DNA of 64,000 bases from an uncultured Actinomycetes bacterium. Its GTDB lineage: Bacteria; Actinomycetota; Thermoleophilia; UBA2241. How positions within the stretch are numbered: position 1 is the stretch's first letter; each line of letters opens with the position of its first letter. The stretch lies in the NCBI GenBank assembly GCA_963767005.1, contig CAVYCN010000010.1, forward strand, positions 100,059-164,058. Reading direction: 5' to 3'. Both the position numbers and the translations under genes were made by a program. Below are positions 34,501-52,615 of the stretch, one piece after another. The notes under the pieces were generated by a model. That model did not search any database and was not told where the DNA came from. It was given only the letters and a program-made list of their open reading frames with translations.

Positions 34501-34908
34501 CTACTGCTGCCCTGGAGTCCAGACGTGGTAGGGGGCCGTGTCGGTGAAGTCCGGCTCGCGCTCCTCGCCATTGGGATTGGGCCCCCACAGGTTGTCGCCC
34601 TTCTCGCTCGCCTTGAGCATGAACCACAGAAGGAGGAGGTCGCCGACGATCGGGACCAGACCGACGAAGATGTACCAGCCGCTCATCCCGGTGTCGTGCA
34701 GCCGCCGGACGCTGACCGCAAGCCCCGGAAGCAGGGTCGCCAGGGCAAAGACAAAGCGCACGATCAGCAGGTGAGGGATCGGGAGGAGGATGAGGGCGAT
34801 CACGCCATTTACGATGCTGAACGTCCAGTACTCGGTCCGGCCGGCCCTTCCCCTGAAGGTCACGTACGTACGCCACGGCTGGATGTACCACTGCCAGTAC
34901 TCGGCCAT
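34501..34908 (-). CDS. DUF805 family membrane protein
   Basis: FRGRAGRTEYW, AVSVRRLHDTGMSGW, GDNLWGPNP; GGGAGG RBS. Confidence 0.92.
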   Translation of the reverse strand: MAEYWQWYIQPWRTYVTFRGRAGRTEYWTFSIVNGVIALILLPIPHLLIVRFVFALATLLPGLAVSVRRLHDTGMSGWYIFVGLVPIVGDLLLLWFMLKASEKGDNLWGPNPNGEEREPDFTDTAPYHVWTPGQQ

Positions 34909-37669: not shown

Positions 37670-39070
37670 TCAGGGCAGGGGCGCGCGCTCGTCGTCGAAG
37701 CCGACGCCATGGGCCGACGGGGCGAGGCGCTCAGCCTCTGCGAGGCTGAGCGCCTCGCCCCCGGCCGCGATGCGCTTCCAGGCGCGGCCCAGGACCGGCG
37801 CGGCGCAGGCGAGGCCGCCGAGGGCGAGAAAGCCGCCCACGCCGATCGCGTCGCCGCTGATCCAGGTGAACAGGAGAGGCGCCGTGAGGGTGCCCACCAG
37901 GGCGGCGAGCTGCATCGAGGTCTGCTCCATGCCCTGGATGGTGCCGAGCCAGCGGCGCGGGCTGCACTGCACGAGGAAGGCCTGCTTGGCCGGCATGGAG
38001 ATCGCCACGGCCACGCCCTCGAAGACGTTGAAGAGCAGGAAGACCGTGAGGTTGCGGGTGAAGCCGTAGACGATCCACGAGCACGCCGAGAAGGCGTAGC
38101 CGGCGAACATGAGGCGGAAGCGGTTGCCCTTCTCGGCCAGTATGCCGCCGGCAAACGAGAAGAGCATCGGCACGGAGAAGGCGATCCAGGTGAGGCTCAC
38201 GAAGGCCATCGAAGCGCCCAGGTGGCGCAGCCAGAGGCTCCAGAGAACCTCCCAGCCGCCCATGGCGAAGTGGCTCGTCGCGGCGATGAGCAAGAAGCCG
38301 GCCACGGGCGGTGTGATGAGCGAGAAGTAGCTCAACAAGGTGCCCGTCACCGAGCGCCACAGGTAGCGGCCCAGGGCGACCGGATGAAGCGGCGACGGCG
38401 CGCGTTCGGGGGCGCGGGCGGGCTCGGCGGCGAGTGCGCGGCGGCGCGCGGCCGCCTGGGCGGGCTCTCTGAGCAGGGCCAGGACCAGCACGGCCATGGC
38501 CAGGGTCATGGCGCTGCCCACCAGGAAGATGGTGTAGAAGCCGCGCCGGCCACCGCCGCCCAGGTCGTTCAGCAGGACGGCGAGCGCCGGTCCGATGACG
38601 AGGCCGCCGAACTGGGCGCTCGTCAGCAGGCCGTAGGCGCGGCCGCGCGTGTCGTCGTCGCTGACGTCGGCGATGATGGCGCTGCCGGCGGGGCCGACCG
38701 AGGCGGCGCCGATGCCCTCGCAGAGCCGGAACAGCAGGAACCACCAGGCGTTCACCGTGGTGACGAACAGGAACGTGGCGAGCGCGTAGAGGAACAGACC
38801 GACCACGATGACCGGCTTGCGGCCGACGCGGTCGCTCAGCCGGCCGAGCGGCGACGAGAAGATGAACGTGCCGGCGTAGTACCCGGCCGCGATCACGCCG
38901 ATCATCTGCACCGACGCGTGGGCCTGCTCGTGCAGGAACACGGGCAGGTACGGCAGGATAGCGCCGAAGCCGGACCACACCACGAACGACGCGAAGCAGA
39001 CCAGCGCAAGCTGCGACCAGTCGGTGTCGTGGGACGCCGGCGCCCCGCCGGTGTCGGCTGTCGCGGTCAC
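37670..39070 (-). CDS. MFS transporter (DHA1-like)
   Basis: GRLSDRVGRKP motif A, 12 TM; start GTG 39070 after GGGAAGGA. Confidence 0.9.
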   Translation of the reverse strand: MTATADTGGAPASHDTDWSQLALVCFASFVVWSGFGAILPYLPVFLHEQAHASVQMIGVIAAGYYAGTFIFSSPLGRLSDRVGRKPVIVVGLFLYALATFLFVTTVNAWWFLLFRLCEGIGAASVGPAGSAIIADVSDDDTRGRAYGLLTSAQFGGLVIGPALAVLLNDLGGGGRRGFYTIFLVGSAMTLAMAVLVLALLREPAQAAARRRALAAEPARAPERAPSPLHPVALGRYLWRSVTGTLLSYFSLITPPVAGFLLIAATSHFAMGGWEVLWSLWLRHLGASMAFVSLTWIAFSVPMLFSFAGGILAEKGNRFRLMFAGYAFSACSWIVYGFTRNLTVFLLFNVFEGVAVAISMPAKQAFLVQCSPRRWLGTIQGMEQTSMQLAALVGTLTAPLLFTWISGDAIGVGGFLALGGLACAAPVLGRAWKRIAAGGEALSLAEAERLAPSAHGVGFDDERAPLP

Positions 39071-39176
39071 GATGTCCTTCCCCAAAAAGCCGGCCGGCGA
39101 GCGCCGGCCAGGCTCTGAGCCCCGCGCCTAGGCTACCATGTCGCACGCACGCGGCGGAACGGGCCGCGGCGCCGGC

Positions 39177-40403
39177 TCAGATATCGCGCACCACGGGCAC
39201 GAAGAAGCCGATCAGGGCCGGCACGAAGACGATCGCCCCGCACACGCCGAAGAGCGGCCCGAGGCTGACCACCGCGGCGAGCCCGCCGGCGGCGAGCACG
39301 CCGATCGCGTACACCCCCTGTGTGAGCGTGAATCGGGCGCCCCAGACGCGCCCGCGCAGGTACTCCGGCACGACCGACTGCACGTACGTGTCGATCGAGA
39401 TCAGCATCACTGCGTTGGCCGCTCCTAGCACGACGAAGTCGCCGAGGACGAGCGGGAGGGTGCCGAGCAAAGTAGGCACAGCTGCGCACATCCCCATGAT
39501 CATTAGCCCGACTGTAATCGCGAGACCCTTGCGGATTCGTTTGGCCAACCAAGCTGTGCCGAGCGAGGCAGCCAAGAAGCCCAACGCCAGTCCTGCCTCC
39601 ATGAACCCAAAAGACCGCAGACTGTTGAAGTGCCTCACGGCGAGCAAGAACGAGAGGGGGTAGAAGGCTCCGATGCCGGCCGCGGCAGCCACAGCCATGG
39701 CGGTGTTCGCTCGAAGTCCCCTGTGACGCACCGTATATGCGATACCCTCGCGCGCACTTGCCCACAGCCTTAGGGTGGTCTGGGCATCGCTTCGAGCAGC
39801 GGTCGCAGAGGCGCCGGCCGTTGTCATCGCCAGTAACGTCACGGCTGACACTCCGAAAGTCGCCGCATCTACGGCGAAGGTCGTGTGAAGTGGGAGCCAG
39901 GCGACGACCAAGCCAGCAGCCGCGAATCCAACGACCTCTGTCGATTGCATACTCGCCGAGAGCAGGGAGTTGGCGCGGAGCAGGTCGCGCTCCCGCACGA
40001 TCTCAGGGAGGAACGCCATCAGGCCTGGCTCGAAGAATGCGGTGGCCGTGGCGGTAGCGAAAGCCAACACGAAGAGCCCATCGATGGACCGCTGGGCGAC
40101 ATACGGGACGCTCAACACGAGCCCACCCCGCATGACGTCTGCTGCAATCATCACCGCCCGTTTGTTGAGCCGGTCCAGCAACACACCAGCGGCCGTGCCA
40201 AATGCGACATAGGGCAGCGTAAAGATGGCCAGCATCAAACCGGTCGACATTGCTGAATGGGTACGGTGGTAAACGAGCCAAGGTAGAGCGACCATGGCGA
40301 GACGGTCGCCCATTTGTGAGACGAACTGACCTGCCAGAAGCAGGTCAAAGTTCGCATTCTTGGCCAGTGAGTGGCTTTCTTGTCGCTCCTGGGTGACGGT
40401 CAT
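39177..40403 (-). CDS. MFS transporter (DHA3/EntS/Mef-like), divergent from the small-peptide gene
   Basis: GQFVSQMGDRL..VALPW, GVLLDRLNKRAVMIAADVMR, FFEPG, LLRANSL, VPEYLRGRV. Confidence 0.9.
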   Translation of the reverse strand: MTVTQERQESHSLAKNANFDLLLAGQFVSQMGDRLAMVALPWLVYHRTHSAMSTGLMLAIFTLPYVAFGTAAGVLLDRLNKRAVMIAADVMRGGLVLSVPYVAQRSIDGLFVLAFATATATAFFEPGLMAFLPEIVRERDLLRANSLLSASMQSTEVVGFAAAGLVVAWLPLHTTFAVDAATFGVSAVTLLAMTTAGASATAARSDAQTTLRLWASAREGIAYTVRHRGLRANTAMAVAAAAGIGAFYPLSFLLAVRHFNSLRSFGFMEAGLALGFLAASLGTAWLAKRIRKGLAITVGLMIMGMCAAVPTLLGTLPLVLGDFVVLGAANAVMLISIDTYVQSVVPEYLRGRVWGARFTLTQGVYAIGVLAAGGLAAVVSLGPLFGVCGAIVFVPALIGFFVPVVRDI

Positions 40404-40649
40404 CGCCTAGTCGCGTGCCCAGAAGCCCTTTTCAGCTCCATCAAGCTGCTTGCCCCCGCAATGCCGCATGTCCCGACGGGCGGTCCTGTGAAGTAGGTCT
40501 TGCGCACACGAGACTAAGGTGTATACCATCTTGGCCACAGTCAATCGTCAACCTTCTTTTATCGGCAGGTTGGCGCAGCTACTTTAGGGGGCTCGGTGAC
40601 CCGCAAGCAGCTCAAGATCCACTAGGCGAGTAGCAATTAGAAGGTATCG

Positions 40650-40727
40650 ATGAAGAAGATCGAAAACGCTCTTGCGTCGATAGTCCTTGTGCTGGTCGCG
40701 TCAGGCGGAAGCGGCAAGATCCATTAG
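40650..40727 (+). CDS. Putative 25-aa signalling-peptide precursor MKKIENALASIVLVLVASGGSGKIH
   Basis: ATG 40650 preceded by AGAAGGT; stop TAG 40725-40727; basic N-terminus, hydrophobic core and short polar tail; immediately upstream of the HD-GYP gene; below the ORF-track length cutoff. Confidence 0.65.
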   Translation: MKKIENALASIVLVLVASGGSGKIH

Positions 40728-40805
40728 GAAACCCGCATCGCCCTAAAGCGCAGCCCTCGGCGCGCCGATACATACGTGTTGCACGTGGTGCTGCGCGAGG
40801 TGCGG

Positions 40806-42236
40806 GTGGATCACCGGGAACGCAATTTCAAGGTGCTCGCTGCTACGGCGAGTGCTGTTGCCATTGTCTGCGTAGGCTATGCCGGGCGCATTGCGTCCGG
40901 CGTGGGCGTATCGCATAGCGCTCTGAGCACTGTCATCCTCGCTCTTATCGCCATCATCGCAGAGGAGATGGCGGTGGAGGTGCGGGAGCGCGTCACAATG
41001 ACTGCGGGCAACCTGCCTGTGCTTCTTGCGCTCATGTTCTTGGGCCCCATCCCTGCCATGGCCGTCGCAGCAATCGTAGGCTTGTGGGGTGCTTGGCGGG
41101 AGAACTCCCGGTCCGTAGTCATCTACAACTGCTCTCAGCTCGTCATATCGGCCTTCGTGGCAGGCGGCTTGTTTGCTGTTCTGAGACAAAGGTTCGACAT
41201 CCCCTTGGACAGCGTCACTGTTCCCTTGCTAGCAGCCGGCGCGGTCAGCGGGGTCACCTACGAGGCGGTCAACAATCTCCTGATCAGTCTGGCTGCGCTT
41301 GCTAAGTACGGAACGTCACTCACAGCTTTCTGGCGGGATGACATGCCGTCGCTGTTGCTCCGTTCCCTCGTGTTTGTGGTCGGACTGGGACTGGCCATGG
41401 CTGCGCTCTACGCAACTGCCGGAGTAACCGCTGTGGCGCTGCTTTTCATCCCCGTGTTTGCTAGCCAGTACATGTTCAAACTCTTGGTCAGAGAGAGGGC
41501 TCACGTCGCCAAACAACAGGAGCTCACGGACAAGTATCTGGAGATGAACCTCGGTCTGGCGGTCGCCATGGTCGTCCTCCTCGACAGCAAGGACCAGTAC
41601 ACCGCCGACCACTCCGCCGCCGTCGCAATGTACTGTCGCGACATGGCCCTGGCGGCCGGCATGGGCGAGGCCGAGGCCGAGGAGATCCACCTCGCCGGCC
41701 TCCTCCACGATTTGGGGAAGGTCGGCACGCCCGACGCGATCCTGCGCAAGGATTCGAGTCTGGACGACGACGAGTGGGGCTACATCCAGCAGCATCCCGA
41801 GAAGGGCGCCGAAGTCCTCTCGCATCTGGCCGCCTATCAGAACGTCGCCGACATCGTGCGCTACCACCACGAGCGGCTTGACGGCACCGGCTATCCATTC
41901 GGCCTCACGAGCGAGTCGATCCCTGAAGCCAGCAAGATGCTCGCGGTCGCCGACACGTACCACGCCATGACGTCGGACCGTCCGTACCGCCGGGCGCTGA
42001 GTTCTTTCGAAGCCCTGAAGGAGATACGAGCAATGGCGGGCGTTGCGCTCGATGCGCGCTGGGTCGAGATTCTCGCCGGCATCCTGCGAGACAAGGATCT
42101 CGCCTACCGTGACGGCAGCGCGACCGACTTCATGGACGAGTACGAGCGCGGGCGCCTGAACCTGCGCCTCAGGGGCGAGGCGCTGGCCGATCTGCGCGGG
42201 CTCTCGCGGTCGCGTCAGGACCCAGCGGCAGGCTGA
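40806..42236 (+). CDS. HD-GYP c-di-GMP phosphodiesterase with N-terminal multi-TM sensor domain
   Basis: About 6-7 TM N-terminus; KDQYTADHS, LLHDLGKVG, HPEKG, HHERLDGTGYP, MTSDRPYR; start GTG 40806 after GAGG (the track start is 40776). Confidence 0.9.
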   Translation: MDHRERNFKVLAATASAVAIVCVGYAGRIASGVGVSHSALSTVILALIAIIAEEMAVEVRERVTMTAGNLPVLLALMFLGPIPAMAVAAIVGLWGAWRENSRSVVIYNCSQLVISAFVAGGLFAVLRQRFDIPLDSVTVPLLAAGAVSGVTYEAVNNLLISLAALAKYGTSLTAFWRDDMPSLLLRSLVFVVGLGLAMAALYATAGVTAVALLFIPVFASQYMFKLLVRERAHVAKQQELTDKYLEMNLGLAVAMVVLLDSKDQYTADHSAAVAMYCRDMALAAGMGEAEAEEIHLAGLLHDLGKVGTPDAILRKDSSLDDDEWGYIQQHPEKGAEVLSHLAAYQNVADIVRYHHERLDGTGYPFGLTSESIPEASKMLAVADTYHAMTSDRPYRRALSSFEALKEIRAMAGVALDARWVEILAGILRDKDLAYRDGSATDFMDEYERGRLNLRLRGEALADLRGLSRSRQDPAAG

Positions 42237-42753
42237 CCAGAGCCCTTGCGACAATGGCTGCGGCGACGGCCTTCGCAACGTCGCCCGGCAGGAACTGGAG
42301 GACCCCTCCCCACACGACGACGTGGAAGCTGTTCGTTTGCAGTTGCAGTGCAAGCCAGGTTGCGCCGAGCGCGTAGATCGGCACAAGCCCGGCCAGTGCG
42401 ACGGGGAGCGCGGCCCGGAGGGTGCGCGGCTTGAGCCGATCCGAGAGCCAGCCGACCAGGCCAGCCGCGACCACGAACCCGAACAGATAGCCGCCTGCCG
42501 GGCCGGCCAGAGCACCTGGCCCTGACGCGCCCTGCGCGTACACGGGCGCGACCAGCCCCATCAGGAGATAGACCGTGAGGCTCAGCACGCCCAGCCGAGC
42601 GCCGAGAACGAGGCCGGCGAGCAGGACGAACGCTACCTGCAGGGTGAACGGCACCGGCCCGAAGAACGGCGCCGAAACGAACGCTCCGAGCGACACCAGC
42701 GCCGCGAACAACGCGGCGAGCGCGAGATCACGGGGTGTGAGGCGGGAGAACAA
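42169..42753 (-). CDS. bioY: Biotin transporter BioY
   Basis: GPVPFTLQ, AGLVLGARLG, GPAGGYLFGF, FLPGDVAKA; downstream of birA. Confidence 0.9.
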   Translation of the reverse strand: MFSRLTPRDLALAALFAALVSLGAFVSAPFFGPVPFTLQVAFVLLAGLVLGARLGVLSLTVYLLMGLVAPVYAQGASGPGALAGPAGGYLFGFVVAAGLVGWLSDRLKPRTLRAALPVALAGLVPIYALGATWLALQLQTNSFHVVVWGGVLQFLPGDVAKAVAAAIVARALVSLPLGPDATARARADRPAPRP

Positions 42754-42788
42754 TTGTCAACTCGCAGAGACCACAGCGAGTTGACAAT
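42753..42788. promoter_or_regulatory. BirA-operator-like palindrome abutting the bioY start
   Basis: ATTGTCAACTCGC-N10-GCGAGTTGACAAT (TGTCAAC-N18-GTTGACA core), resembling the BirA box TGTtAAC-N14-16-GTTaACA. Confidence 0.7.
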
Positions 42789-42839
42789 GTAGCGGCTCGG
42801 GCGGCGCCCTGTAAAGGGTGCGGCCCGAGCCCGCTCGCG

Positions 42840-43859
42840 CTACCGGTGCAGCGTCACGTCACCCGAGTGGAACCGCCTGATGTGGCGGTCGGGGAGCTCG
42901 ACCAGTAGCGCCCCGCGGTCGTCGATGCCGGCGGCCTCACCCATGACGAGCCCTTCACGGGTCTGCATGCTCACGCTGCGATGGAGGAGGTAGTCGCGCT
43001 CGCGGAACTCGCGGAGGGTGCGCTCGAAGCCGTTCGCGAGACAGTCGAGGTAGGTCTTCTCGAGCGTGAGCAGGATCCGTGCCAGGAGCACGCTGCGATC
43101 GACCGTCTTGTCGGTCGCCATCTTGAGCGACGTCGCCGTCTTGCGCAGCGCGACGGGCAGCTCGGTGAACTCGACGTTGACGTTGATGCCGATGCCGGCG
43201 ACTACCCAGTCCACCCGGTCCTGCTCGCCGGAGACCTCGAGCAGGATGCCGCCGGCCTTCTTGTTGTCGATGATGATGTCGTTCGGCCACTTCAGGTGCA
43301 CGGGGATCTTCGCCTGCGCCTCGATCGCCTCAGCCACGGCGTCGCCGGTCGTCAGCGTGAGCATGTGAGCGTCGGTCATCGCGAGGCTGGGCCGCAGGAT
43401 GACCGAGAAAAGCAGGCCCTTGCCGGGCGGAGACGTCCAGGTGCGCCCGAGCCTGCCCCTGCCCTTGAGCTGGCTCTCGGCGACGACGACGGTGCCTTCG
43501 GGCGCGCCCTCGGTCGCGAGGCGGCGGCCTTCGGTGTTGGTCGACTCGATCTCGTCGTAGTAGCGAAACGACTTTCCGAGCGCCGACTTCTCGGTGAGCT
43601 TGGCCACAACGGGCATGACCAGACGCCTCGGCTCTTCCTCGAGCCGATAGCCGCGGCGCGAGATGCCGAGGATGCGGAAGCCACGTGCGCGCAGGGAGTT
43701 GACGTGCTTGTGGACCGCGTTGCGCGAGATGCCGAGCGAGTCGCTGATCGCCTGACCGGAGACGAAGCCAGGATTGTCGCGGAGGATCTCGATGACAGTC
43801 TTCTTGCGTGGGCTCATGCGCTGTGACTCAACGAAGACGATGGATGCGGATGATTCCAT
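42840..43859 (-). CDS. birA: Bifunctional biotin-protein ligase / biotin repressor BirA
   Basis: N-terminal HTH (VSGQAISDSLGISRNAVHKHV), STN, QLKGRGRLGRTW, KWPND, KAGGIL, GIGIN; GGAGG RBS. Confidence 0.95.
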   Translation of the reverse strand: MESSASIVFVESQRMSPRKKTVIEILRDNPGFVSGQAISDSLGISRNAVHKHVNSLRARGFRILGISRRGYRLEEEPRRLVMPVVAKLTEKSALGKSFRYYDEIESTNTEGRRLATEGAPEGTVVVAESQLKGRGRLGRTWTSPPGKGLLFSVILRPSLAMTDAHMLTLTTGDAVAEAIEAQAKIPVHLKWPNDIIIDNKKAGGILLEVSGEQDRVDWVVAGIGINVNVEFTELPVALRKTATSLKMATDKTVDRSVLLARILLTLEKTYLDCLANGFERTLREFRERDYLLHRSVSMQTREGLVMGEAAGIDDRGALLVELPDRHIRRFHSGDVTLHR

Positions 43860-43915
43860 GGCCCCCCTCCGGTGTGGTTGTGGGAGGAGGCTAGCGGTCT
43901 GAGCTCAGGGGCGAA

Positions 43916-46777
43916 TCAGTCCCCGGTTGTATCTTGTCCGGTCCGCGGTTCGATGTACGCGCGATAGTACAGCACGGCCTGGACGCGGTCGCTGACGCCG
44001 AGCTTCGTGAAGATGTGGTTGACATGCGTCTTGACGGTCTTCTCGGAAAGGAACAGGCGTCTCGCAATCTCTGGATTCCGATGGCCGGCGGCGATGAGGC
44101 TCAGGACTTGCTCTTCTCGGCCGGTGAGCTCTGAGACTGGGGATGGCCCATCGTGACGCGGGAGGGCTCTGCGGATGGCGCGGAGCTCACGGATCTGACC
44201 GCCCTTCCTAGCCTCGACAAGCAATTGCTGAACTACGGCTTCAGGCGCGTCGTGCGTGCAGATTTCTACCACAAGGGCGCGAAGACTGCGGTCATCTGCC
44301 TGTAGCATCCGCACAAGCAGCGGCACTGACCTCTGGCTGTGTAGGAGCGCTTTGATCAGGGCCGCTCGCCAAGCTTTCAGGTTCTCGTCGTGACCTGCTT
44401 GAAGCCCTAAGTCAGGCCACTGAGCGAACTCTTGGCAGAGGAAGTCGACGTGTCCCAGGCACAGTTGTGCCGGCAGACACCGGCGGAGCGCTTCCATGGC
44501 TGTGTCTGCCTCACCCGCCCGTGAGGCTAGGATGGCGCTGAAGAAGTCGCATTCGTTTGCGATGAAAGCTAGGTCGAGACTTTCGCACCTACGCCGAAGC
44601 TCCCCCAGCCTGTCTAGTCCTCCACCATGGAGTAGGCCGTGGGACAAGTGCAGGCCCGCTTCGGCCGACAGGAGTGGGGAAGGCGCCTGCGTCTTGCGTC
44701 CTGACTCGATCGCGGCCTGGTACAGTTCGAGAGCTTCCTCCACTCGCCCCGCGTGTCTAAGAGCGTCCGCCAGTCCGCAGAGCGTTGTGGGAAGGGACCA
44801 GGTGTCCTGCGCAATTCGGGAAGACTCCGCCAGCCGTTCGAAGATGTCTTTGGCTGCGCCCAAGTCACCGTTCGCTGCCAAGAGACGAGCGAATCCCTCG
44901 TCGAACATGTGCCGCAGGTGGTCCAGACCGAGTCGCTCACACTGATCGATGCAAAGATGGGCTGTCGCAGCCGCCTCGTTGTAGCGCCCCAAGTCACGCA
45001 AGAGATCCGTGAGAACCCCGATGAGGGTGACTTTGAGTTGCCCTGAACCCGAGGTCTCGACGAACGGGAGGACCTGCCTGAGACCTGACTCTGCGTCCAG
45101 GAAGCATCCGCGGAGGTATTTCACATTGGCGCGCAACGCCGCGAGTCGTGCGCTTTCTTGAGGGCACACGGAGTGCATTGACTCGGCCTCGCTCCACAGG
45201 CGCTCGGCTTCTCTCCAGCGGCACACGTAGCTGCGTGCCGAGCCGAGGCTCACGAGCGTGTGCACTCTTTGCTCGGTCGTGGTGGCGGCCTCCAACGCTG
45301 CCTCGCAGTACGTCGCCGCCTGTTCGAAGTCGCCCTTCCAGAACCAGATGGCCTCGATTGCGCTCAGCGCGTGGTACACGCCCCACTGATCGTTGCGGGC
45401 ACGAAGCTGGGCCTCGGCGCGAGTGAGCGCGGCCAGGGCTCGGGTCGAGTCGCCCTCGCGCAACGCGAGCTGACCGGCCAGGAAGAGGACCCACGGGTCG
45501 TCTTCGGACGTGTTCGGCGCGAGGCGCTCGAGCCACGATCGGAGAGCGCCAAAGCGGCAGTTGTCGGTGACGAGCTCGCCGCTCCGCGACACTACTCCGA
45601 GCGCCCGCTCAGGCTCGTTCGCTGCGAAGTAGAGCTCGATCGCCGTTTCGGGGTCGCCGGCGCCCTCGACCGACGCTGCCGTGTGGAGTTGCTGGCTGCG
45701 GAAGGCGTCGGCGCCGTATTCGTTCGCGTACCACTGTTGCAGGTAGTCGCGAAGAAGCTGGTGGTAGCGGTACGTGCCCGTCGCACGGTCGACGAATGTG
45801 AAGACGTTGTGGGCAACAAGGCGCTCCAGCGAACGCCGTGCGTGATCGGACCTGGCGACCGTGTCGGCGAGCTGGATGGTCATGGATTCGAGGCAGCAGG
45901 TAGAAAGCAAGAATGCGACCGTCTCCGCGTCTTCTCGCCTGAACGCCTCTTCGGAGAGATAGGAGAAGACATCGCTTGTGAGCCGGGGGTCGACGAGCGC
46001 GTGCTCGATCGAACCGAGGCTCGTCCAGTCGAGCGCTCGACTGATGAGGACGAGGCTCGCAGGCCAGCCTTCGGTAAGCTCGACCAGGCGGCTTGCCTGG
46101 TCGAGATCGAGTCGCACGCCCGATCGGTGGGCGAAGAGCTCAACGACCTGGGGTGGGTCGAGTCTGAGGTCTTCGAAGGTCACCTCGGCGAGCGCGTCCT
46201 CGAGCTTCAGGCGCGCGGTGGGGACGGCGGGCTGAAACCGAGTGATCAAGACGAGATGAATGAGCGACGGCAAGTTCGCGAGCACGTAGTCGAGCGCGCG
46301 ATTGAGCTCGGCCGACGCGATGGCTTGCTGGTAGTCGTCGACGACGATGTGCAGCTCGTCGGCGACCTCGTCGCGCAGCTCGGAGACCAGTAGGGCGGTC
46401 ATCTCGGACGGCGACATGGGCGTCTCATGTGCCTCGGCGAAGCGTTCCATGAGGATGTCCCCGAACGTGGGGACGCACTCGCGGATCGCCTGTACGAGCG
46501 ACGCGACGAACACGGCCGGGTCGTGGTCGAGGACGTCGACGCGGTACCAGGCCGCTCGCCACCCCAGCCGCCGAGCGGCTTCGGCGATGACGACTGTCTT
46601 TCCGTAGCCGGCCGGTGCGCGCACCGTGAGAAGGCGCTTGCGTGCCCCAGCGGCGATCTTGCCGAGGACGTCGTCTCGGATGAGTGCCTGCCCGACGCTC
46701 GGTGTTGCGATCTTGGCGGCGACGAACGCCGGTGCCCCTGCCGGCACGCGGCGCGCCGAGCTTTGGTGGTCCCCCAC
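43916..46777 (-). CDS. MalT-type (STAND ATPase-TPR-LuxR HTH) transcriptional regulator
   Basis: RAPAGYGKT, VVDDYQ, TEGWPA, YRYHQLLRDYL, TPR-like helical repeats, ELTGREEQVL..IAAGHRNPEIARRLFLSEKTVKTHVNHIFTKL; start GTG 46777. Confidence 0.9.
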   Translation of the reverse strand: MGDHQSSARRVPAGAPAFVAAKIATPSVGQALIRDDVLGKIAAGARKRLLTVRAPAGYGKTVVIAEAARRLGWRAAWYRVDVLDHDPAVFVASLVQAIRECVPTFGDILMERFAEAHETPMSPSEMTALLVSELRDEVADELHIVVDDYQQAIASAELNRALDYVLANLPSLIHLVLITRFQPAVPTARLKLEDALAEVTFEDLRLDPPQVVELFAHRSGVRLDLDQASRLVELTEGWPASLVLISRALDWTSLGSIEHALVDPRLTSDVFSYLSEEAFRREDAETVAFLLSTCCLESMTIQLADTVARSDHARRSLERLVAHNVFTFVDRATGTYRYHQLLRDYLQQWYANEYGADAFRSQQLHTAASVEGAGDPETAIELYFAANEPERALGVVSRSGELVTDNCRFGALRSWLERLAPNTSEDDPWVLFLAGQLALREGDSTRALAALTRAEAQLRARNDQWGVYHALSAIEAIWFWKGDFEQAATYCEAALEAATTTEQRVHTLVSLGSARSYVCRWREAERLWSEAESMHSVCPQESARLAALRANVKYLRGCFLDAESGLRQVLPFVETSGSGQLKVTLIGVLTDLLRDLGRYNEAAATAHLCIDQCERLGLDHLRHMFDEGFARLLAANGDLGAAKDIFERLAESSRIAQDTWSLPTTLCGLADALRHAGRVEEALELYQAAIESGRKTQAPSPLLSAEAGLHLSHGLLHGGGLDRLGELRRRCESLDLAFIANECDFFSAILASRAGEADTAMEALRRCLPAQLCLGHVDFLCQEFAQWPDLGLQAGHDENLKAWRAALIKALLHSQRSVPLLVRMLQADDRSLRALVVEICTHDAPEAVVQQLLVEARKGGQIRELRAIRRALPRHDGPSPVSELTGREEQVLSLIAAGHRNPEIARRLFLSEKTVKTHVNHIFTKLGVSDRVQAVLYYRAYIEPRTGQDTTGD

Positions 46778-46964
46778 TGATCGGCCCCCGTTTGGAGCGT
46801 GCGCTCCTGCCCCAGTGCGCTTACTATAGCAGTCGCACGAGTGTCGGTACCTGGGACTGCCGCGGTGAAGGTTGACATAGCGATGATGGCGGACGTGACG
46901 ATGGCCGGGCGGCTGCCGGTGCTGCGTACCCACGCGCTCGGCGGCGCGTTGTCCGTCCGTTAAT

Positions 46965-49121
46965 ATGACCGTGATGAGTCAAACCCCCCAGAGACCTCCG
47001 CGGCGACGCAAGAAGAAGGAGCCGTTCGCCGTCGTCATCCTTGCGCTTGTGGTCGCGCTCGTGGCGTGGCCGTTCGAGCGGCTGGCCGGGCGCGGGCGCG
47101 AGCCGCAGGGTCGCGGCGGCGCCCGGCGGCGCCGGCCTGCCCGGCCGGCGACCGGGAGCCGGCGAGAGGCGGTCGCGAGGCCGGCCGGCGACGCCTGGGA
47201 GCCGGCGCCCGAGTTCGGCGAAGGCTGGGTGCGCGTCGGCGAGCGCGAACCGCGCGCCGCGGGCGCCGCTGAGCCGTCCGCGCGCGGCTCACGGCAGCGC
47301 GCGGGCGGTCGCGGCGGCCCCTCGCAGCGCCGCCTGGCGATCCTGCTGGTCGTGGGCGTCGTCGTGGCGCTGCTCGTCGCGGCGGTGGCCTTCGCCGAGG
47401 CGACCCAGGGCTCGGCGATCGGTCGCCACGTGAGCGTGAACGGTGTTGCGCTCGGCGGCCTCACCGTGGACCAGGCGGCGCGCAAGCTCGACAGCGTCGA
47501 GCTGACCGCCGGCGGCCTGCGGCTGACCTGGCGGGGCCACGACTGGACCCTGACCGGTCGCGCCCTGCACGCCCGCATCGAGGCGCGCCAGACGGCGCAG
47601 CTCGCCTACGCCTACACGCGCTCGGGCAACGTCGTGGCGCGCCTGTGGGACCGCTTTGCGCTGCTCTTCTCGGGCCACACGGTCGAGCCGACCGTCACCT
47701 ACGGTGAACCGGTCACGCGCGAGCGCCTCGACGCCATCACTCGCGCCGTCGACGTGAAGCCCGTCGAGGGCGCCGTCACGCTCCGCGGGGTCGATCCGGT
47801 CGCGCATGCGGCCAAGGACGGCCGCGCGGTCGACCGCGCGGCCGTCCTTGGCCTGCTGGATGCCGCGCTGCTTGCGCAGACTCACGCGAGCGTCGCTCTG
47901 CCGGTGACCACGATCAGCCCGTCGGTGTCGACGTCCGACGCCAAGGCGGCGGCCGCCACCGCGCGCGACTGGCTGTCGGGTCCGCTCTCGCTCACGCACG
48001 CCGGCCACACCTGGACGATCTCACGCCAGGACCTGGGCCAGTACCTCGCCTTCGTGCGCCAGCAGGGTTCGCCGCACCTGCGCGTGACCTTCGATTCGCC
48101 CGTCACGCGCGGCTACTTCTCGTACATCACCGCGCAGGTCGGGCAGCCCGGCAGGAACGCCACCTTCACCCTGAGCAGCGGCGGCAAGCGCGTGTGGGTC
48201 AAGCCCGGCACCACGGGCTACGGCGTCGTGCCGGGGCCGACCATCGCCAACATGGACGCGGCCGCCGCGGGCGGCGGCAGCCGCGTCGCGGCCGCGGTCT
48301 TCGGCAAGGCGCCGCCGGCCCTGAGCTACGCCGACGCCAAGGCGCTGCGCATCACGACGCGCATCGGCACTTACACCACGGGCGTGGCCGGCACCACCAA
48401 CCGCCTCGACAACGTCGCGCTCGGCTCGTCGCTGCTCAACAACACGCTGATCGCGCCGGGCAAGATCTTCTCGGTCAACGCCACGACCGGCGAGCGCACC
48501 GCGGCCAAGGGCTTCAAGATGGCGCCGACCATCATCAACGGCAAGCTCGAGGACTCGGTCGGCGGCGGCATGTGCCAGGTCTCGACGACGGTCTTCAACG
48601 CCGCCTTCGAGGCCGGCCTGCAGATCGTCGAGCGCCACAACCACGAGCTCTACATCTCGCACTACCCGCTGGGCCGCGACGCGACGGTGAGCTACGGCTC
48701 CTACGACCTCAAGTTCCGCAACGACACGCCCAACTGGATCCTGCTCAAGACCGACTTCACGGGCTGGGCGCTCACCGTGTCGCTCTACAGCGCGCCGCTG
48801 CACCGCCGGGTCGTGGCCTGGACCAACAGCTGGTACGACATCGTGCCCTTCACCGTGCACAAGTCGCGCGACCCAGCGCTGCCGAAGGGGCAGACCACGG
48901 TGCAGACGCCGGGCGTCGACGGCATGAGCCTCGACTGCTTCCGCAAGGTGTACGACGCAAGCGGCAAGCTCCTCTGGAACGACGACTTCAAGAGCGTCTA
49001 CTCGATGGTCCGCGAGATCCTTCTGGTCGGCACCAAGCAGCCGACCCCGAGCCCCAGCGGGTCGGCCACGGCGACGAGCTCGCCAAAACCCAAGCCGAGC
49101 ACGTCGTCGAGCCCGCACTGA
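46965..49121 (+). CDS. VanW-family protein with PG-binding-4 domains and a G5-like C-terminus
   Basis: NRLDNV, IAPGKIFSVN..TGERT, GGGMCQVSTTVFNAA, ERHNH, YPLGRDATV, DLKFRNDT. Confidence 0.9.
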   Translation: MTVMSQTPQRPPRRRKKKEPFAVVILALVVALVAWPFERLAGRGREPQGRGGARRRRPARPATGSRREAVARPAGDAWEPAPEFGEGWVRVGEREPRAAGAAEPSARGSRQRAGGRGGPSQRRLAILLVVGVVVALLVAAVAFAEATQGSAIGRHVSVNGVALGGLTVDQAARKLDSVELTAGGLRLTWRGHDWTLTGRALHARIEARQTAQLAYAYTRSGNVVARLWDRFALLFSGHTVEPTVTYGEPVTRERLDAITRAVDVKPVEGAVTLRGVDPVAHAAKDGRAVDRAAVLGLLDAALLAQTHASVALPVTTISPSVSTSDAKAAAATARDWLSGPLSLTHAGHTWTISRQDLGQYLAFVRQQGSPHLRVTFDSPVTRGYFSYITAQVGQPGRNATFTLSSGGKRVWVKPGTTGYGVVPGPTIANMDAAAAGGGSRVAAAVFGKAPPALSYADAKALRITTRIGTYTTGVAGTTNRLDNVALGSSLLNNTLIAPGKIFSVNATTGERTAAKGFKMAPTIINGKLEDSVGGGMCQVSTTVFNAAFEAGLQIVERHNHELYISHYPLGRDATVSYGSYDLKFRNDTPNWILLKTDFTGWALTVSLYSAPLHRRVVAWTNSWYDIVPFTVHKSRDPALPKGQTTVQTPGVDGMSLDCFRKVYDASGKLLWNDDFKSVYSMVREILLVGTKQPTPSPSGSATATSSPKPKPSTSSSPH

Positions 49122-50335: not shown

Positions 50336-52615
50336 TCATGTTCGAATTCCCCCTTCGGCGTCGGTGGCCGTGATCGCCCGCAGGAGCGCAAGCGCCCCCT
50401 GCTTGTGGAGCGGTTCGTTCAAGTTACCGCACTTGGGGCTCTGGACGCACGAGGGACAGCCCGCCTCGCACGGGCACTCGGCGATCAGCAGGGCCGCGTC
50501 GGCGGCGAGGTCGGTGAAGGCCTCGAAGGCGCGCCGCGTGAGGCCGATGCCGCCCTGGTGGCCATCGTAGATGAAGACGGTGGCGAGGTCGGTCTGCCAG
50601 TGCCAGGCCGTCGACAGACCGCCGATGTCCCAGCGGTCGCACATGGCGTAGAGCGGCAGCACGGCGATGCAGGTGTGCTCGGCGGCGTGCAGCGCGCCGA
50701 GCACGGCGCCTTCGTCGAGGTGGGCCGCCAGCAGCGCGGGCGGCAGCGTGAACCAGAGCGCCTCGGTGGTGAAGACCTGCTCGGGCAGGTCGAGCGTGAC
50801 CGTGTCGATCACCTCGCCGTCGTCGACGCCGCGCTTCTGGTAGGCGACGACCCGCTCGGTCACCTCGATCGTGCCGAACGACAGCACGGCGCCGCCGGCC
50901 AGCGGGTGCGGCGAGCCGCCGCCGGCGATGGCGACGTGCTTCTCGACCTTGGCCTGCGTGTAGTAGGCGCCGCGGAAGGGCTCGACCATCACGCCGGCGG
51001 CGTCGAGGTCGAGATGGCGCACCAGGTAGCTTTCGCCGAGGTGCAGGTAGACGGCGCCGGGGTGGGCGGCGCGAAAGACGCGATCGCTCTCGACAGTGCC
51101 GAGCACCGTACCGTCGCGGCCGTCGGCGATCACGAAGTTGCGGTCGGAGGCCGAGCGCAGGCCGGTCCGCAGGGCAGGGGAGTGGGAGCGGCCCCAGGCG
51201 AGGGCGCCCGTCGCGGTGCGGCGCAGCTCGCCGCGAGCGGCGAGCTGCGCCGCCCGCGCCATGCCGGCCTCGCCGAACCAGGCCTCGTCGCCTTCGTCGA
51301 GCGGCCGCTCGTAGGCTGCCGCCGCCAGGTGGGCCGCGAGGATGTGGGGGTTGGTGAGGTCGACGATCGCGTCTTCGACCGCGCGCGACAGCAGGCGCTC
51401 GGGCTCGCGCATGAAGTACTGGTCGAGGGCGTCCTGGCCGGCGACGAGGACGGCCCAGCCCTTGCCGGCCCGGCCGGCCCGGCCCCAGCGCTGCCAGAGG
51501 CTCGTCATGGTGCCGGGAAAGCCGGTGACCAGGGCGAGGTCGAGGCCGCCCACGTCGATGCCGAGCTCAAGCGCGCTGGTCGCCACCACGGCGCGCAGCT
51601 CGCCGTCGAACAGGCGCCGCTCGATCTCGCGGCGCTGCTCGGGCGTGTAGCCGGCACGGTAGGGCATGACGCCATCGGCCGCCGACGGGTCGCGGTCGGT
51701 CAGGCGGCGGCGCACGAAGCCGTAGACGAGCTCGGCGGCCTTGCGCGTGGGGGCGAAGTCGATCGCCCGGCGGCCGGCCAGCACGGTCTCGGCGAGCACG
51801 TAGCTCGACTCGGCGAGGGCGCTCTTGCGCACGCCGAGGGCAACGTCGAGCAGCGGCGGGTTCCAGAGCACGATGGTGCGCTCGGGCTGCGGCGCGCCGC
51901 TGTCGTCGATCGCCGTGAACGGCAGGCCGACGAGCCGCTCGGCGAAGGGCTGCGGATTGGCGATGGTGGCCGAGGCGAGCACGAAGCGGGGATCGGCGCC
52001 GTAGGCGGCGCACAGCCGCCGCAACCGGCGCACGACCTGGGCGACGTGCGAGCCGAACACGCCCCGGTACACGTGCGCCTCGTCGAGCACGACGAAGCGC
52101 AGCTGGTGCAGGAACTCGGCCCAGCGCTCGTGGGCCGGCAGGATGCCGGCGTGCAGCATGTCGGGGTTGGTGAGCACGATGGTCGCGGCCGAGCGCACCC
52201 GGGCGCGCTCGGCGCGCGGTGTGTCGCCGTCGTAGAGGGCGACGACGGCGCCGGGCAGCCGCAGCGCCGCGAGCTTGCGGGCCTGGTCCTGGGCGAGCGC
52301 CTTGGTCGGGTACACGAAGAGCGCCCGGCTGGCGCGGTCGCGGGCGAAGGCGTCGAGCGTGGGCAGGGCGAAGGCGAGCGACTTGCCGCTGGCCGTGCCG
52401 GTCGCGACCACGACGTTGTCGCCGGCGGCGAGGTGGTCCCACACCCGGCGCTGGTGGCTGTAGAGCGCGTCGATGCCCTGGCCGCGTAGGGCGGCGGCGA
52501 TGCCGGGATCGAGGTCGCCGGGCAGGGGCTCGTGCCGCGCCGGCCGCGCGGCGCGGTGCGTGACGTAGACGACCTGCTCGTGGGAGCCGTCGGTCAGAAA
52601 GGCCACGTCGGGCAT
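50336..52615 (-). CDS. DEAH helicase with DUF1998 (MrfA/SftH/Hrq1-like DNA repair helicase)
   Basis: LYSHQ, TGTASGKS, YPTKALAQDQ, DEAH, SAT, QRWGRAGR, AMCDRWD, CPCEAGCPSC. Confidence 0.93.
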   Translation of the reverse strand: MPDVAFLTDGSHEQVVYVTHRAARPARHEPLPGDLDPGIAAALRGQGIDALYSHQRRVWDHLAAGDNVVVATGTASGKSLAFALPTLDAFARDRASRALFVYPTKALAQDQARKLAALRLPGAVVALYDGDTPRAERARVRSAATIVLTNPDMLHAGILPAHERWAEFLHQLRFVVLDEAHVYRGVFGSHVAQVVRRLRRLCAAYGADPRFVLASATIANPQPFAERLVGLPFTAIDDSGAPQPERTIVLWNPPLLDVALGVRKSALAESSYVLAETVLAGRRAIDFAPTRKAAELVYGFVRRRLTDRDPSAADGVMPYRAGYTPEQRREIERRLFDGELRAVVATSALELGIDVGGLDLALVTGFPGTMTSLWQRWGRAGRAGKGWAVLVAGQDALDQYFMREPERLLSRAVEDAIVDLTNPHILAAHLAAAAYERPLDEGDEAWFGEAGMARAAQLAARGELRRTATGALAWGRSHSPALRTGLRSASDRNFVIADGRDGTVLGTVESDRVFRAAHPGAVYLHLGESYLVRHLDLDAAGVMVEPFRGAYYTQAKVEKHVAIAGGGSPHPLAGGAVLSFGTIEVTERVVAYQKRGVDDGEVIDTVTLDLPEQVFTTEALWFTLPPALLAAHLDEGAVLGALHAAEHTCIAVLPLYAMCDRWDIGGLSTAWHWQTDLATVFIYDGHQGGIGLTRRAFEAFTDLAADAALLIAECPCEAGCPSCVQSPKCGNLNEPLHKQGALALLRAITATDAEGGIRT

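What the first reader, a model, noticed from the sequence alone, without database searches (positions are those of the whole stretch)
39177..46777. Candidate undescribed peptide-signalling system: micro-peptide + membrane-sensor HD-GYP + MFS transporter + MalT-type TPR-LuxR regulator
Seen: an unannotated 25-aa ORF (40650-40727) sits 78 nt upstream of a gene with about 6-7 TM helices fused to an HD-GYP domain with its core motifs present. A DHA3-type MFS is transcribed divergently from the same AT-richer intergenic region, and a 953-aa STAND-TPR-LuxR regulator lies about 1.7 kb beyond the HD-GYP gene. All four share atypical lower-GC sequence. Known: agr-type systems place a peptide gene beside a multi-TM receptor, RRNPP regulators bind peptides through TPRs, and HD-GYP domains hydrolyse c-di-GMP. 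Inference: a quorum-sensing-like circuit in which a processed peptide is moved by the MFS and read by the membrane sensor (output: c-di-GMP) and/or the TPR regulator (output: transcription). I know of no characterised system with this combination.
Basis: partly seen in the sequence, partly recalled or inferred. Interest (0 to 1): 0.85.

Follow-up and report, generated by a model that had tools for sequence, protein, structure and literature searches.

The report
Ultra-short peptides beside a c-di-GMP sensor
Two hidden genes of only 9 and 25 codons, both ending in the same three amino acids, sit between a transporter gene and the gene for a membrane enzyme of the type that destroys the bacterial messenger c-di-GMP; the peptides are likely the unknown signal for this sensor, read in a pocket predicted to face the inside of the cell.

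Summary
The 25-codon ORF is real: 127 of 133 related loci, pN/pS 0.33. A sister family has a 6-codon ORF ending W/F/Y in 24 of 24 loci (control 0).

The sensor is MASE9-HD-GYP. Its model has the ECF S-component fold, apparently inverted, so the conserved pocket faces the cytoplasm. WhiG-type promoters drive the sensor and the divergent MFS, and the genome has WhiG and RsiG. The arms do not covary, so this is no RNA helix. MFS genes beside MASE9 genes group together in a tree. The MalT-type gene shares an upstream box with the peptide genes, but no receptor role is shown.

Best reading: peptide tails switch the phosphodiesterase, feeding back through c-di-GMP, RsiG and WhiG; the MFS moves the leaderless peptide. 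Translation, binding and export are untested; co-folding was unavailable.

This scan found the MASE9-micropeptide pairing before on other DNA (8 notes). Eight paper searches found no description.

The parts
39177..40403 (-). DHA3-like MFS transporter, 408 aa; member of a group found next to MASE9 genes; candidate carrier of the leaderless peptide (inferred)
   Evidence: divergent in 107 of 109 loci with enough flank; found in 22 of 25 f1 genomes and 0 of 24 f6 genomes with this query; tree, SH-aLRT 93
40500..40529 (+). Candidate housekeeping (sigma-A type) promoter for the two peptide ORFs, TTGCGC-N18-TACCAT (inferred; the -35 is poorly conserved)
   Evidence: TAnnnT 12-30 nt before the GTCAAC box in 91 of 105 loci; not found by the generic sigma-70 scan
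40544..40553 (+). Conserved box ATCGTCAACC; candidate operator; binder unknown
   Evidence: GTCAAC in 125 of 129 loci, 12 in the reverse orientation; no matching -10 for a sigma-A -35 reading
40559..40586 (-). WhiG/sigma-28-type promoter (TAAA-N16-GCCGATAA) pointing to the MFS
   Evidence: strict match in 83 of 125 loci, 0 on the opposite strand; consensus from PMC8325347 and 10.64898/2026.01.14.699351
40596..40625 (+).
   Evidence: 129 of 133 loci; start codon plus SD in 138 of 146 ORFs, modal length 8-9 aa; 2-4 motif copies in 55 of 146
40650..40727 (+). ORF-B: 25-aa peptide, basic N-terminus, short hydrophobic/amphipathic helix, GG linker, K-x-H tail
   Evidence: 127 of 133 loci, pN/pS 0.33, G(-6) and H(-1) invariant in 107 distinct sequences; Kyte-Doolittle 19-residue maximum 1.46, at least 1.6 in only 10 of 71 variants
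40744..40771 (+). WhiG/sigma-28-type promoter (TAAA-N16-GCCGATAC) between the peptide ORFs and the sensor gene
   Evidence: strict match in 96 of 125 loci, 0 on the opposite strand
40806..42236 (+). MASE9-HD-GYP membrane phosphodiesterase, 476 aa; the MASE9 model has the ECF S-component fold, predicted inverted in the membrane
42169..43859 (-). bioY (42169-42753) and birA (42840-43859): syntenic neighbours in family f1, probably passengers
   Evidence: birA in 76 and bioY in 70 of 78 loci; absent from f6 loci
43916..46777 (-). MalT-type STAND-TPR-LuxR regulator, 953 aa; link to the module plausible (transcriptional), not shown
   Evidence: synteny; tree
46870..46878 (-). Second copy of the GTCAACC box, about 100 nt upstream of the MalT-type gene
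   Evidence: 44 of 74 loci at this position, 2 in the opposite orientation, 0 in an in-gene control window

Best explanation
Two conserved micro-genes with the same C-terminal K-x-H tail lie in front of a MASE9-HD-GYP gene, and their products likely act as the ligand of the MASE9 domain, which is predicted to bind them in an S-component-type pocket open to the cytoplasm. The 9-mer (ORF-A) would be a soluble, leaderless form. The 25-mer (ORF-B) would be a form held at the membrane by its amphipathic helix. Binding likely switches on c-di-GMP hydrolysis; the direction is inferred and could be the reverse. Lower c-di-GMP would free sigma factor WhiG from RsiG. WhiG would then transcribe more sensor (positive feedback) and the divergent MFS from the two promoters found here, along with pilin and PilT-like genes elsewhere in the genome. 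The MFS likely moves the leaderless peptide across the membrane, so the inside level depends on export and on how much peptide neighbours have released, giving a quorum-like switch. The MalT-type protein probably acts on transcription through the shared GTCAAC box. SHOWN here: the ORFs, their selection and their pairing with MASE9 genes, the promoter motifs, the presence of WhiG and RsiG, and the grouping of the MFS proteins. PREDICTED: the fold and its orientation. INFERRED: translation, binding, direction of control, transport, and the MalT role.
For: (1) The tail is kept at protein level: 273 K-x-H-stop tails in 133 upstream regions, against 2 on the reverse strand and 12 in 2.3 Mb elsewhere; all three stop codons are used. 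(2) The tail, not the helix, is the constant. ORF-A has no hydrophobic part and carries 2-4 motif copies in 55 of 146 cases. In L092 and L177 ORF-B has decayed while a 5-aa ORF-A (MIKIH), the MFS and the sensor remain. In family f5, 6-7-aa and 28-30-aa ORFs are interspersed on one sensor clade. (3) Family f4: a 6-codon SD-led ORF ending W/F/Y in 24 of 24 loci (reverse control 0 of 24), with variable middle residues; MFS directly downstream in 23 of 24. (4) Each sensor clade has its own tail type and its own conserved polar residues. (5) A promoter lies between peptide and sensor: WhiG-type in f1 (96 of 125) and f4 (18 of 24), TATAAT in f6. Peptide genes also occur as 2-3 identical copies and as a pair away from any MASE9 gene. 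Both fit a product acting in trans. (6) The MASE9 model matches ECF S-components: the top 14 of 48,161 chains, Z 10.8-14.8. Helix parity and K/R counts put loops L1, L3, L5 and most conserved polar residues inside. (7) WhiG 277 bits (cut-off 189.6) and RsiG 60 bits (cut-off 27) are in the genome. Three of only 7 strict promoter matches in 3.44 Mb are at MASE9 peptide loci; other strict or relaxed matches precede pilin, PilT-like and other signalling-type genes (read from N-terminal sequences, not family searches). This resembles the Rubrobacter WhiG regulon (PMC8325347). (8) MFS proteins next to MASE9 genes in three different gene orders group together apart from 17 other MFS rows of the tree.
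Against: No expression, translation, binding or transport data. ORF-A and ORF-B tails are identical in only 78 of 125 loci, 60 of them one KMH clade, so the concordance is largely shared ancestry. Exceptions exist: L043 has SWKLR ORFs and no ORF-B, and L237's ORF-A ends PFKLG. Three of 13 top f5 loci gave no clear candidate, and none of the 13 has an MFS within 1.5 kb; f6 loci have no MFS. So export is not a fixed part of the module. Ten of 11 other MASE9 loci (10 with a PP2C-like output, one untyped) follow a gene with W-rich C-terminal repeats. The one checked is a subtilase whose N-terminus looks like a signal peptide by eye; its repeats would be released outside, which sits badly with an inward pocket unless re-imported. 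Several long MASE9-HD-GYP(-GGDEF) genes and one own-genome paralogue show no clear micro-ORF. Topology rests on a model and the positive-inside rule. The MFS grouping has support 93 in a quick tree with a midpoint root. The loci are related and partly redundant, and the tail patterns were defined after seeing the data.
Confidence: 0.5

Rival explanations
1. Cell-internal modulators only. The peptides tune the MASE9 sensor inside the producing cell, as small membrane partners or as a read-out of translation or promoter activity, like MgrB on PhoQ (recalled). The MFS clears them or carries something else, and there is no cell-to-cell signal.
For: Inward-facing pocket. No MFS beside f6 sensors or within 1.5 kb of 13 f5 sensors. 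ORF-B-type peptides are the common form across Actinomycetota: 18 of 27 loci, control 4 of 27.
Against: An MFS of one group was kept beside MASE9 genes in three gene orders and shares the WhiG-type promoter. Hypervariable hexapeptides with fixed length and terminal residue look like strain-specific signals.
Confidence: 0.22
2. One reading: the 25-mer is exported and processed, and the mature tail is read from outside by the membrane sensor and/or, after re-import, by the TPR domain of the MalT-type regulator (RRNPP-like).
For: ORF-B has a basic N-terminus and a hydrophobic core, with a weak Phr_nterm hit (14.1 bits, cut-off 25). MalT-type genes lie beside the sensor in f1 (76 of 78) and in all 9 f6 loci with at least 4.9 kb downstream. 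A second MalT-family gene in this genome is followed by a 9-codon ORF MRYAKKWGG and an MFS, with no MASE9 gene seen in the region. Subtilase tail repeats of similar chemistry.
Against: Outer loops are short and unconserved (also 10.1101/2021.11.05.467447). The peptides track MASE9, not MalT, across f4, f5 and other classes. The MRYAKKWGG arrangement was a singleton among 30 MFS loci and 4 stand-alone MalT loci. The f6 MalT proteins are not shown to be orthologues.
Confidence: 0.15
3. Cis-acting leader: the micro-ORFs and a folded RNA gate translation or transcription of the HD-GYP gene (attenuation, translational coupling, His/Trp sensing), as several earlier notes of this scan proposed for other loci.
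For: The ORFs lie 78-200 nt upstream on the same strand. Complementary motifs flank them. In a fold of the long leader the HD-GYP start is paired. A read-through transcript is not excluded: no terminator was found between them.
Against: The flanking arms are two WhiG-type promoters: fixed 15-17-nt spacing, spacers only 33% alike; 66 of 92 loci deviate in an arm and only 6 are compensated; arm match 0.838 against 0.833 shuffled. The sensor has its own promoter downstream of the ORFs. K, x and H are all conserved, not His codons alone, and f4 ends in W, F or Y. No Rfam match.
Confidence: 0.08
4. The peptides are real genes but unrelated in function to the sensor (for example small toxins or antibiotic-protective mini-peptides cleared by the MFS), and are kept here by co-regulation.
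For: DHA3-type MFS relatives include drug-efflux pumps. Mini-gene peptides are known to act on ribosomes (recalled).
Against: The pairing with MASE9 persists across classes and into a Bacillota plasmid while other neighbours change.
Confidence: 0.05

Closest known systems
MASE9-HD-GYP proteins (TM1467, HdgA; Galperin and Chou, 10.1101/2021.11.05.467447, passages read)
   Same: Same domain pair and 8 membrane segments; the paper notes poorly conserved outer loops and an unknown ligand bound within the membrane.
   Different: The paper's main text has 0 hits for 'peptide'; the passages read give no fold, partner ORF, MFS or promoter.
Leaderless communication peptides, SIP-RopB (PMC10518010, passages read)
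   Same: 8-9-aa peptide from an ultra-small ORF with no secretion signal, read inside the cell, transport route unknown.
   Different: LCP receptors are soluble RRNPP transcription factors in Firmicutes. Here the linked partner is a membrane phosphodiesterase in Actinomycetota, the peptides are basic rather than hydrophobic, and a candidate transporter lies next door.
WhiG-(c-di-GMP)-RsiG switch (PMC8325347, passages; 10.64898/2026.01.14.699351, passages and section 8)
   Same: Same promoter consensus; both genes present; c-di-GMP enzymes and type IV pilus genes are known or predicted targets.
   Different: Neither main text mentions HD-GYP (0 hits each); no peptide input appears in the parts read.
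S-component-fold receptors, 5TMR/LytS-BtsS (PMC11109136, passages read)
   Same: S-component core plus an extra N-terminal helix, used as the sensor of a signalling enzyme.
   Different: Those have 7 helices, N-terminus outside and an outward pocket for small metabolites. MASE9 has an eighth helix and is predicted inverted. 'MASE' has 0 hits in that paper.
agr and RRNPP/Phr peptide quorum sensing (agr recalled; RRNPP as introduced in PMC10518010)
   Same: Peptide gene next to its receptor gene; active part at or near the C-terminus; variable tails.
   Different: No AgrB, cyclising Cys or histidine kinase; no N-terminal-HTH TPR receptor; the output is c-di-GMP.
Small membrane modulators of sensors, MgrB/SafA-PhoQ (recalled)
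   Same: ORF-B size and membrane affinity.
   Different: Cannot account for the soluble 5-9-aa forms or their tandem repeats.

Membership tests
MASE9-HD-GYP | PF20972 above cut-off, fused to HD-GYP | tested here: met
   28.4 against 24.3 bits; HD_5 133 bits; Atlas best clusters are MASE9
MASE9-HD-GYP | HD-GYP metal and substrate motifs intact | tested here: met
MASE9-HD-GYP | Hydrolyses c-di-GMP | not testable with these tools
   needs an assay; the best PDB sequence match was a cGAMP phosphodiesterase, so the substrate is not certain
ECF S-component fold | Six-helix core with L1 hairpin | tested here: met
   predicted model only; Z 10.8-14.8, 152-193 residues aligned, top 14 rows
5TMR/S-component receptors | N-out, 7 helices, pocket towards the outside | tested here: not met
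   8 helices; mean K/R 1.3-4.5 in L1, L3, L5 against 0.2-0.7 in the other loops; prediction, not experiment
LCP (SIP-RopB) | Ultra-small ORF for a mature peptide without leader | tested here: met
   ORF-A
LCP (SIP-RopB) | Adjacent RopB/RRNPP receptor | tested here: not met
   Pfam and NCBIfam of the neighbours give MFS, MASE9-HD-GYP, BioY, BirA and MalT-type; no Rgg/RopB
LCP (SIP-RopB) | Secreted, re-imported, active between cells | not testable with these tools
   needs experiments
RRNPP/Phr | Phr-type propeptide | tested here: not met
   TIGR04429 14.1 bits, cut-off 25
RRNPP/Phr | TPR domain binds the peptide | not tested
   no complex prediction could be run
agr | AgrB protease, AgrD with cyclising Cys/Ser, histidine kinase (features recalled) | tested here: not met
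   no such families among the ten neighbouring proteins scanned; no conserved Cys in ORF-B
WhiG regulon member | T(A/C)AA-N16-GCCGA within 200 nt of a start codon | tested here: met
WhiG regulon member | WhiG and RsiG encoded in the genome | tested here: met
WhiG regulon member | Transcription start at the motif, WhiG-dependent | not testable with these tools
   needs RNA data
Leader-peptide / RNA-helix attenuator | Compensatory changes in the long-range helix | tested here: not met
   6 of 66 deviating loci compensated; no excess over shuffles
MalT (equivalog) | NF003420 above cut-off | tested here: not met
   234.6 against 537 bits; MalT-type architecture only

The most novel reading that the evidence does not exclude
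MASE9 is a widespread peptide receptor built from an upside-down ECF S-component. It reads the C-terminal 3-6 residues of peptides made in three ways: leaderless ORFs of 5-9 codons (some as tandem polyproteins), membrane-tethered 25-30-mers, and repeats on a subtilase tail. With a dedicated MFS group it forms a cell-to-cell signalling circuit wired into the c-di-GMP-RsiG-WhiG switch, using some of the shortest functional genes known.
Probability: 0.35. Interest if true: 0.93.

Novelty: categorically new. Interest (0 to 1): 0.8.

Why it matters
The ligands of MASE-type sensors and the inputs of most c-di-GMP phosphodiesterases are unknown. This locus names exact, cheap-to-synthesise candidates (5-9-mers) and a predicted pocket, so the question becomes directly testable. 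It would extend leaderless peptide signalling beyond Firmicutes and beyond RRNPP receptors, offer a candidate transporter where LCP transport is unexplained, give an upstream input to the WhiG-RsiG switch, and show functional genes of six codons that annotation cannot see.

Tried and rejected
Not available or blank:
- The search of protein representatives never ran, so breadth outside Actinomycetota rests on one plasmid and on PF20972 hits in two control genomes.
- Sequencing runs: no RNA holder was listed.
- Rfam: nothing credible in 38900-47200.
- The generic sigma-70/terminator scan found no promoter, and no terminator between the ORFs and the sensor.
- tblastn of the 25-mer against the own genome found only itself.

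Considered and rejected:
- Long-range RNA helix around the ORFs.
- Local hairpin/palindrome over the minus-strand -10: only 40 of 108 loci reach 6 or more of 8 matches; left open.
- GTCAAC as a sigma-A -35 for the opposite strand: no -10 at the right spacing.
- Low-GC island or recent transfer.
- A general MalT + micro-ORF + MFS module: found once only.
- Orthology of f1 and f6 MalT-type genes: not shown; quick tree only, the careful tree did not finish.
- DUF5317 (next to paralogous modules) as a signal-peptidase-II-like processing enzyme: a recalled resemblance; no usable Atlas or PDB hit.

Paper searches without a description of the module: (open-licence PMC and bioRxiv only). Supplements of the two bioRxiv preprints could not be seen; Fig. 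S5 of the MASE9 paper and Table S4 of the WhiG paper may bear on these claims.

Full report
1. Observation. The window is G000:C10:100059-164058. All 80 genome relatives of the sensor carry Thermoleophilia, Gaiellales or generic Actinomycetes/Actinomycetota labels. HD-GYP motifs are intact. Lower GC is real here but not shared by the MFS in relatives (11 of 34).

2. The peptide genes are real, and there are two. I fetched 160 loci. Of these, 144 had at least 330 nt upstream and 133 were classed as family f1; one of the 133, L169, is a misfiled f6 locus. The sets overlap and are related, so counts are descriptive. ORF-B was found in 127 of 133 and a second ORF, ORF-A, in 129 of 133. Both end [KR][ILVM]H-stop: 273 such tails, against 2 on the reverse strand and 12 in 2.3 Mb of the other sequence. 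ORF-B has pN/pS 0.33 over 107 distinct sequences, third positions vary most, and all three stop codons occur. ORF-A has a start codon plus SD in 138 of 146 cases, mostly 8-9 aa. In the window it is MTRKQLKIH at 40596-40625. In 55 of 146 cases it is a tandem repeat, such as MRFGGKMH-IKFGGKMH-IRFGGKMH. Genome-wide, only these two of 2244 SD-led short ORFs end in this motif. Exceptions: L119 has neither ORF; L133 and L166 have frameshifted ORF-B; L092 and L177 have a decayed ORF-B and a 5-aa ORF-A; L043 has two SWKLR 8-mers; L237 ends PFKLG. A and B tails are identical in 78 of 125 loci, 60 of them one clade.

3. The pairing follows MASE9. Family f6 (10 loci with enough upstream DNA) has only B-type peptides with variable aromatic tails and no MFS. 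Family f4 has a 6-codon ORF ending W/F/Y in 24 of 24 loci (reverse control 0 of 24) and an MFS directly after the sensor in 23 of 24 (25 of 34 matches were fetched, one lacked upstream DNA). In f5, 6-7-aa and 28-30-aa ORFs alternate on one sensor clade; 3 of the top 13 loci gave no clear candidate and none had an MFS within 1.5 kb. Elsewhere in Actinomycetota, 18 of 27 MASE9 loci have a B-type ORF (control 4 of 27; rule set after viewing), sometimes in 2-3 identical copies. An unannotated one precedes an HD-GYP and DUF5317 gene on a Natranaerobius plasmid. The own genome has a paralogue with two B-type ORFs and DUF5317, and a second such pair away from any MASE9 gene. Ten of 11 further MASE9 loci (10 PP2C-like, one untyped) follow a gene with 5-10 W-rich pentapeptide repeats at its C-terminus; the one scanned is a subtilase. 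Several long MASE9-HD-GYP(-GGDEF) genes show no such ORF.

4. Promoters, not an RNA helix. Two complementary motifs flank the ORFs. Each matches the WhiG/sigma-28 consensus T(A/C)AA-N16-GCCGATAA (PMC8325347 and 10.64898/2026.01.14.699351; passages read). One points to the sensor, downstream of both ORFs; the other points to the MFS. Strict matches occur in 96 and 83 of 125 loci, and 0 on the opposite strands. The arms vary without compensation (6 of 66) and the spacers are unrelated. The genome encodes WhiG and RsiG above cut-off. It has only 7 strict matches, 3 at MASE9 peptide loci, against 0-3 at seven control spacings. Other matches precede pilin and PilT-like genes (judged from N-termini). 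A promoter also lies between ORF and sensor in f4 (18 of 24) and, as TATAAT, in f6 (by inspection). By the published mechanism, c-di-GMP-loaded RsiG holds WhiG, so a WhiG-driven phosphodiesterase gives positive feedback; c-di-GMP enzymes are the most widespread predicted WhiG targets.

5. The sensor. AlphaFold2 models have mean pLDDT 90. The MASE9 part matches ECF S-components in the top 14 of 48,161 chains (Z 10.8-14.8; NikM-type 4m5c over 193 residues). Foldseek ranks the same family first, but at E above 0.001. In transporters and 5TMR receptors the pocket lies towards the outside (PMC11109136, passages). Here an eighth helix precedes the cytoplasmic HD-GYP domain. K/R counts (57 f1 sequences) are high in L1, H3-H4 and H5-H6, and low in the alternate loops; most conserved polar residues lie on the K/R-rich side. 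I infer an inverted fold with an inward pocket. That suits a leaderless peptide. ORF-B is only marginally a transmembrane helix (10 of 71 variants reach Kyte-Doolittle 1.6), so it could lie on the inner leaflet with its tail on the same side. The MASE9 paper states no ligand and suggests binding within the membrane (10.1101/2021.11.05.467447, passages).

6. MFS and MalT. The MFS is divergent in 107 of 109 f1 loci and was found only in f1 with this query (22 of 25). It groups (SH-aLRT 93, quick tree) with the f4 MFS and with an MFS behind a paralogous module, apart from other DHA3-like proteins. I take it as part of the module, though not an obligatory one. The MalT-type gene is as syntenic as birA in f1 (76 of 78 each). 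In f6 one or two MalT-type genes follow the sensor directly (all 9 loci with at least 4.9 kb downstream), but they are 23-25% identical and form another clade. A GTCAAC box lies upstream of ORF-A (125 of 129) and at a fixed place upstream of the MalT-type gene (44 of 74; controls 2 and 0). f6 peptide promoters carry an AACYRTC box (10 of 10), in five loci as a direct repeat 23-24 nt apart. f4 and f5 largely lack these boxes (GTCAAC 1 of 24 and 1 of 13; AACYRTC 0 of 24 and 2 of 13). This suggests transcriptional control, binder unknown; in f6 an upstream LuxR response regulator is an alternative binder. One MalT paralogue in this genome is followed by MRYAKKWGG and an MFS, but this was not seen again.

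7. Mechanism. Best reading (0.5): the tails are ligands of MASE9, ORF-A soluble and ORF-B tethered. They switch the phosphodiesterase, probably on, and act through c-di-GMP, RsiG and WhiG on the sensor, the MFS and pilus genes. MFS transport makes the signal shareable. Rivals: cell-internal modulators only (0.22); outside or TPR reading as first proposed (0.15); cis-acting leader (0.08); unrelated function (0.05). Translation, binding, direction and transport are all untested.

8. Relation to known systems. It works like the leaderless peptides SIP/LCP (PMC10518010, passages) but has no RRNPP receptor, and it fails the agr and Phr tests. It is a member of MASE9-HD-GYP and, by motif, of the WhiG regulon. 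Eight searches of open-licence papers found no description of the module; subscription papers and preprint supplements were not covered. This scan's earlier notes (unchecked AI notes, not support) report the same micropeptide-MASE9 pairing in other genomes, two of them with a smaller companion ORF. Two further look-ups returned nothing. Added here from my own tests: the promoter reading in place of the RNA-leader reading for this clade, the inverted S-component fold, the six-codon family, the MFS group and the shared box.

9. Verdict. A real, conserved module, undescribed in the papers searched, with a testable mechanism. Interest 0.8.

Noticed in passing
G000:C2 about 589.5-592.6 kb (L003, L280); also L061, L064-L066, L069, L072-L074, L076: Subtilase with a signal-peptide-like N-terminus and a C-terminal tail of 5-10 pentapeptide repeats (RYSWS, TKFKW, TKFRW, ARSWG) directly upstream of MASE9-PP2C-type genes; the repeats resemble the f4 hexapeptides.
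   Followed up: partly
L368-L392 (family f4; L167 is labelled Gaiellales): Six-codon ORFs with strong SD and a terminal W/F/Y in 24 of 24 loci, followed by a WhiG-type promoter, MASE9-HD-GYP and MFS.
   Followed up: yes
G000:C11:89670 (-), L279 about 3640-3670: 9-codon ORF MRYAKKWGG with SD, then a strong GC hairpin, between a MalT-type paralogue and a DHA3 MFS with no clear start codon; not seen in relatives.
   Followed up: yes
G000:C2:654566 (+): Pair of B-type peptide ORFs (ending GAFKKWA and MWLKWD) like those of the C2:229 kb paralogue, but in front of an unrelated gene of about 400 aa.
   Followed up: partly
G000:C2:227-229.4 kb (L001, L282); L054-L057, L336: Paralogous operon: WhiG-type promoter, two different 30-32-aa peptides, MASE9-HD-GYP, DUF5317, and in G022 an MFS of the same group. 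DUF5317 had 0 hits in the paper search.
   Followed up: partly
window 40536-40552 (inferred): The predicted peptide transcript and the predicted MFS transcript start face to face and overlap by about 16 nt, over the GTCAAC box; mutual interference is possible. The minus-strand -35 abuts ORF-A's SD.
   Followed up: no
window 42169-42236: bioY and the HD-GYP gene overlap at their 3' ends by 68 nt. BioY is itself an ECF S-component, the fold predicted for MASE9; bioY is missing in 8 of 78 loci.
   Followed up: no
G000, one search list (for example C2:502088, C3:220834, C10:135063): Candidate WhiG regulon with pilin, PilT-like, sugar-nucleotide/glycosyl and signalling genes; C10:135063 is the DUF805 gene at window 34501-34908.
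   Followed up: partly
L136, L141, L142, L162, L164 (family f6): Direct repeat AACYRTC spaced 23-24 nt upstream of the peptide gene; a LuxR response regulator upstream (seen in L047/L048) and one or two MalT-type genes downstream.
   Followed up: partly
window 43916-46777 and relatives: The MalT-type protein diverges much faster (33-47% across genera) than BirA (64-81%) or the sensor (58-72%) in the same loci.
   Followed up: no
L418:2487-2582 (NZ_CP144220.1): Unannotated B-type peptide ORF before a membrane HD-GYP gene and DUF5317 on a Natranaerobius thermophilus plasmid record; both genes are split there, possibly by assembly errors.
   Followed up: partly
window 50336-52615 and 33382-34434: A DEAD/DEAH-type helicase-like ORF and a radical-SAM-like ORF flank the region; named from their sequences by recall, not scanned.
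   Followed up: no
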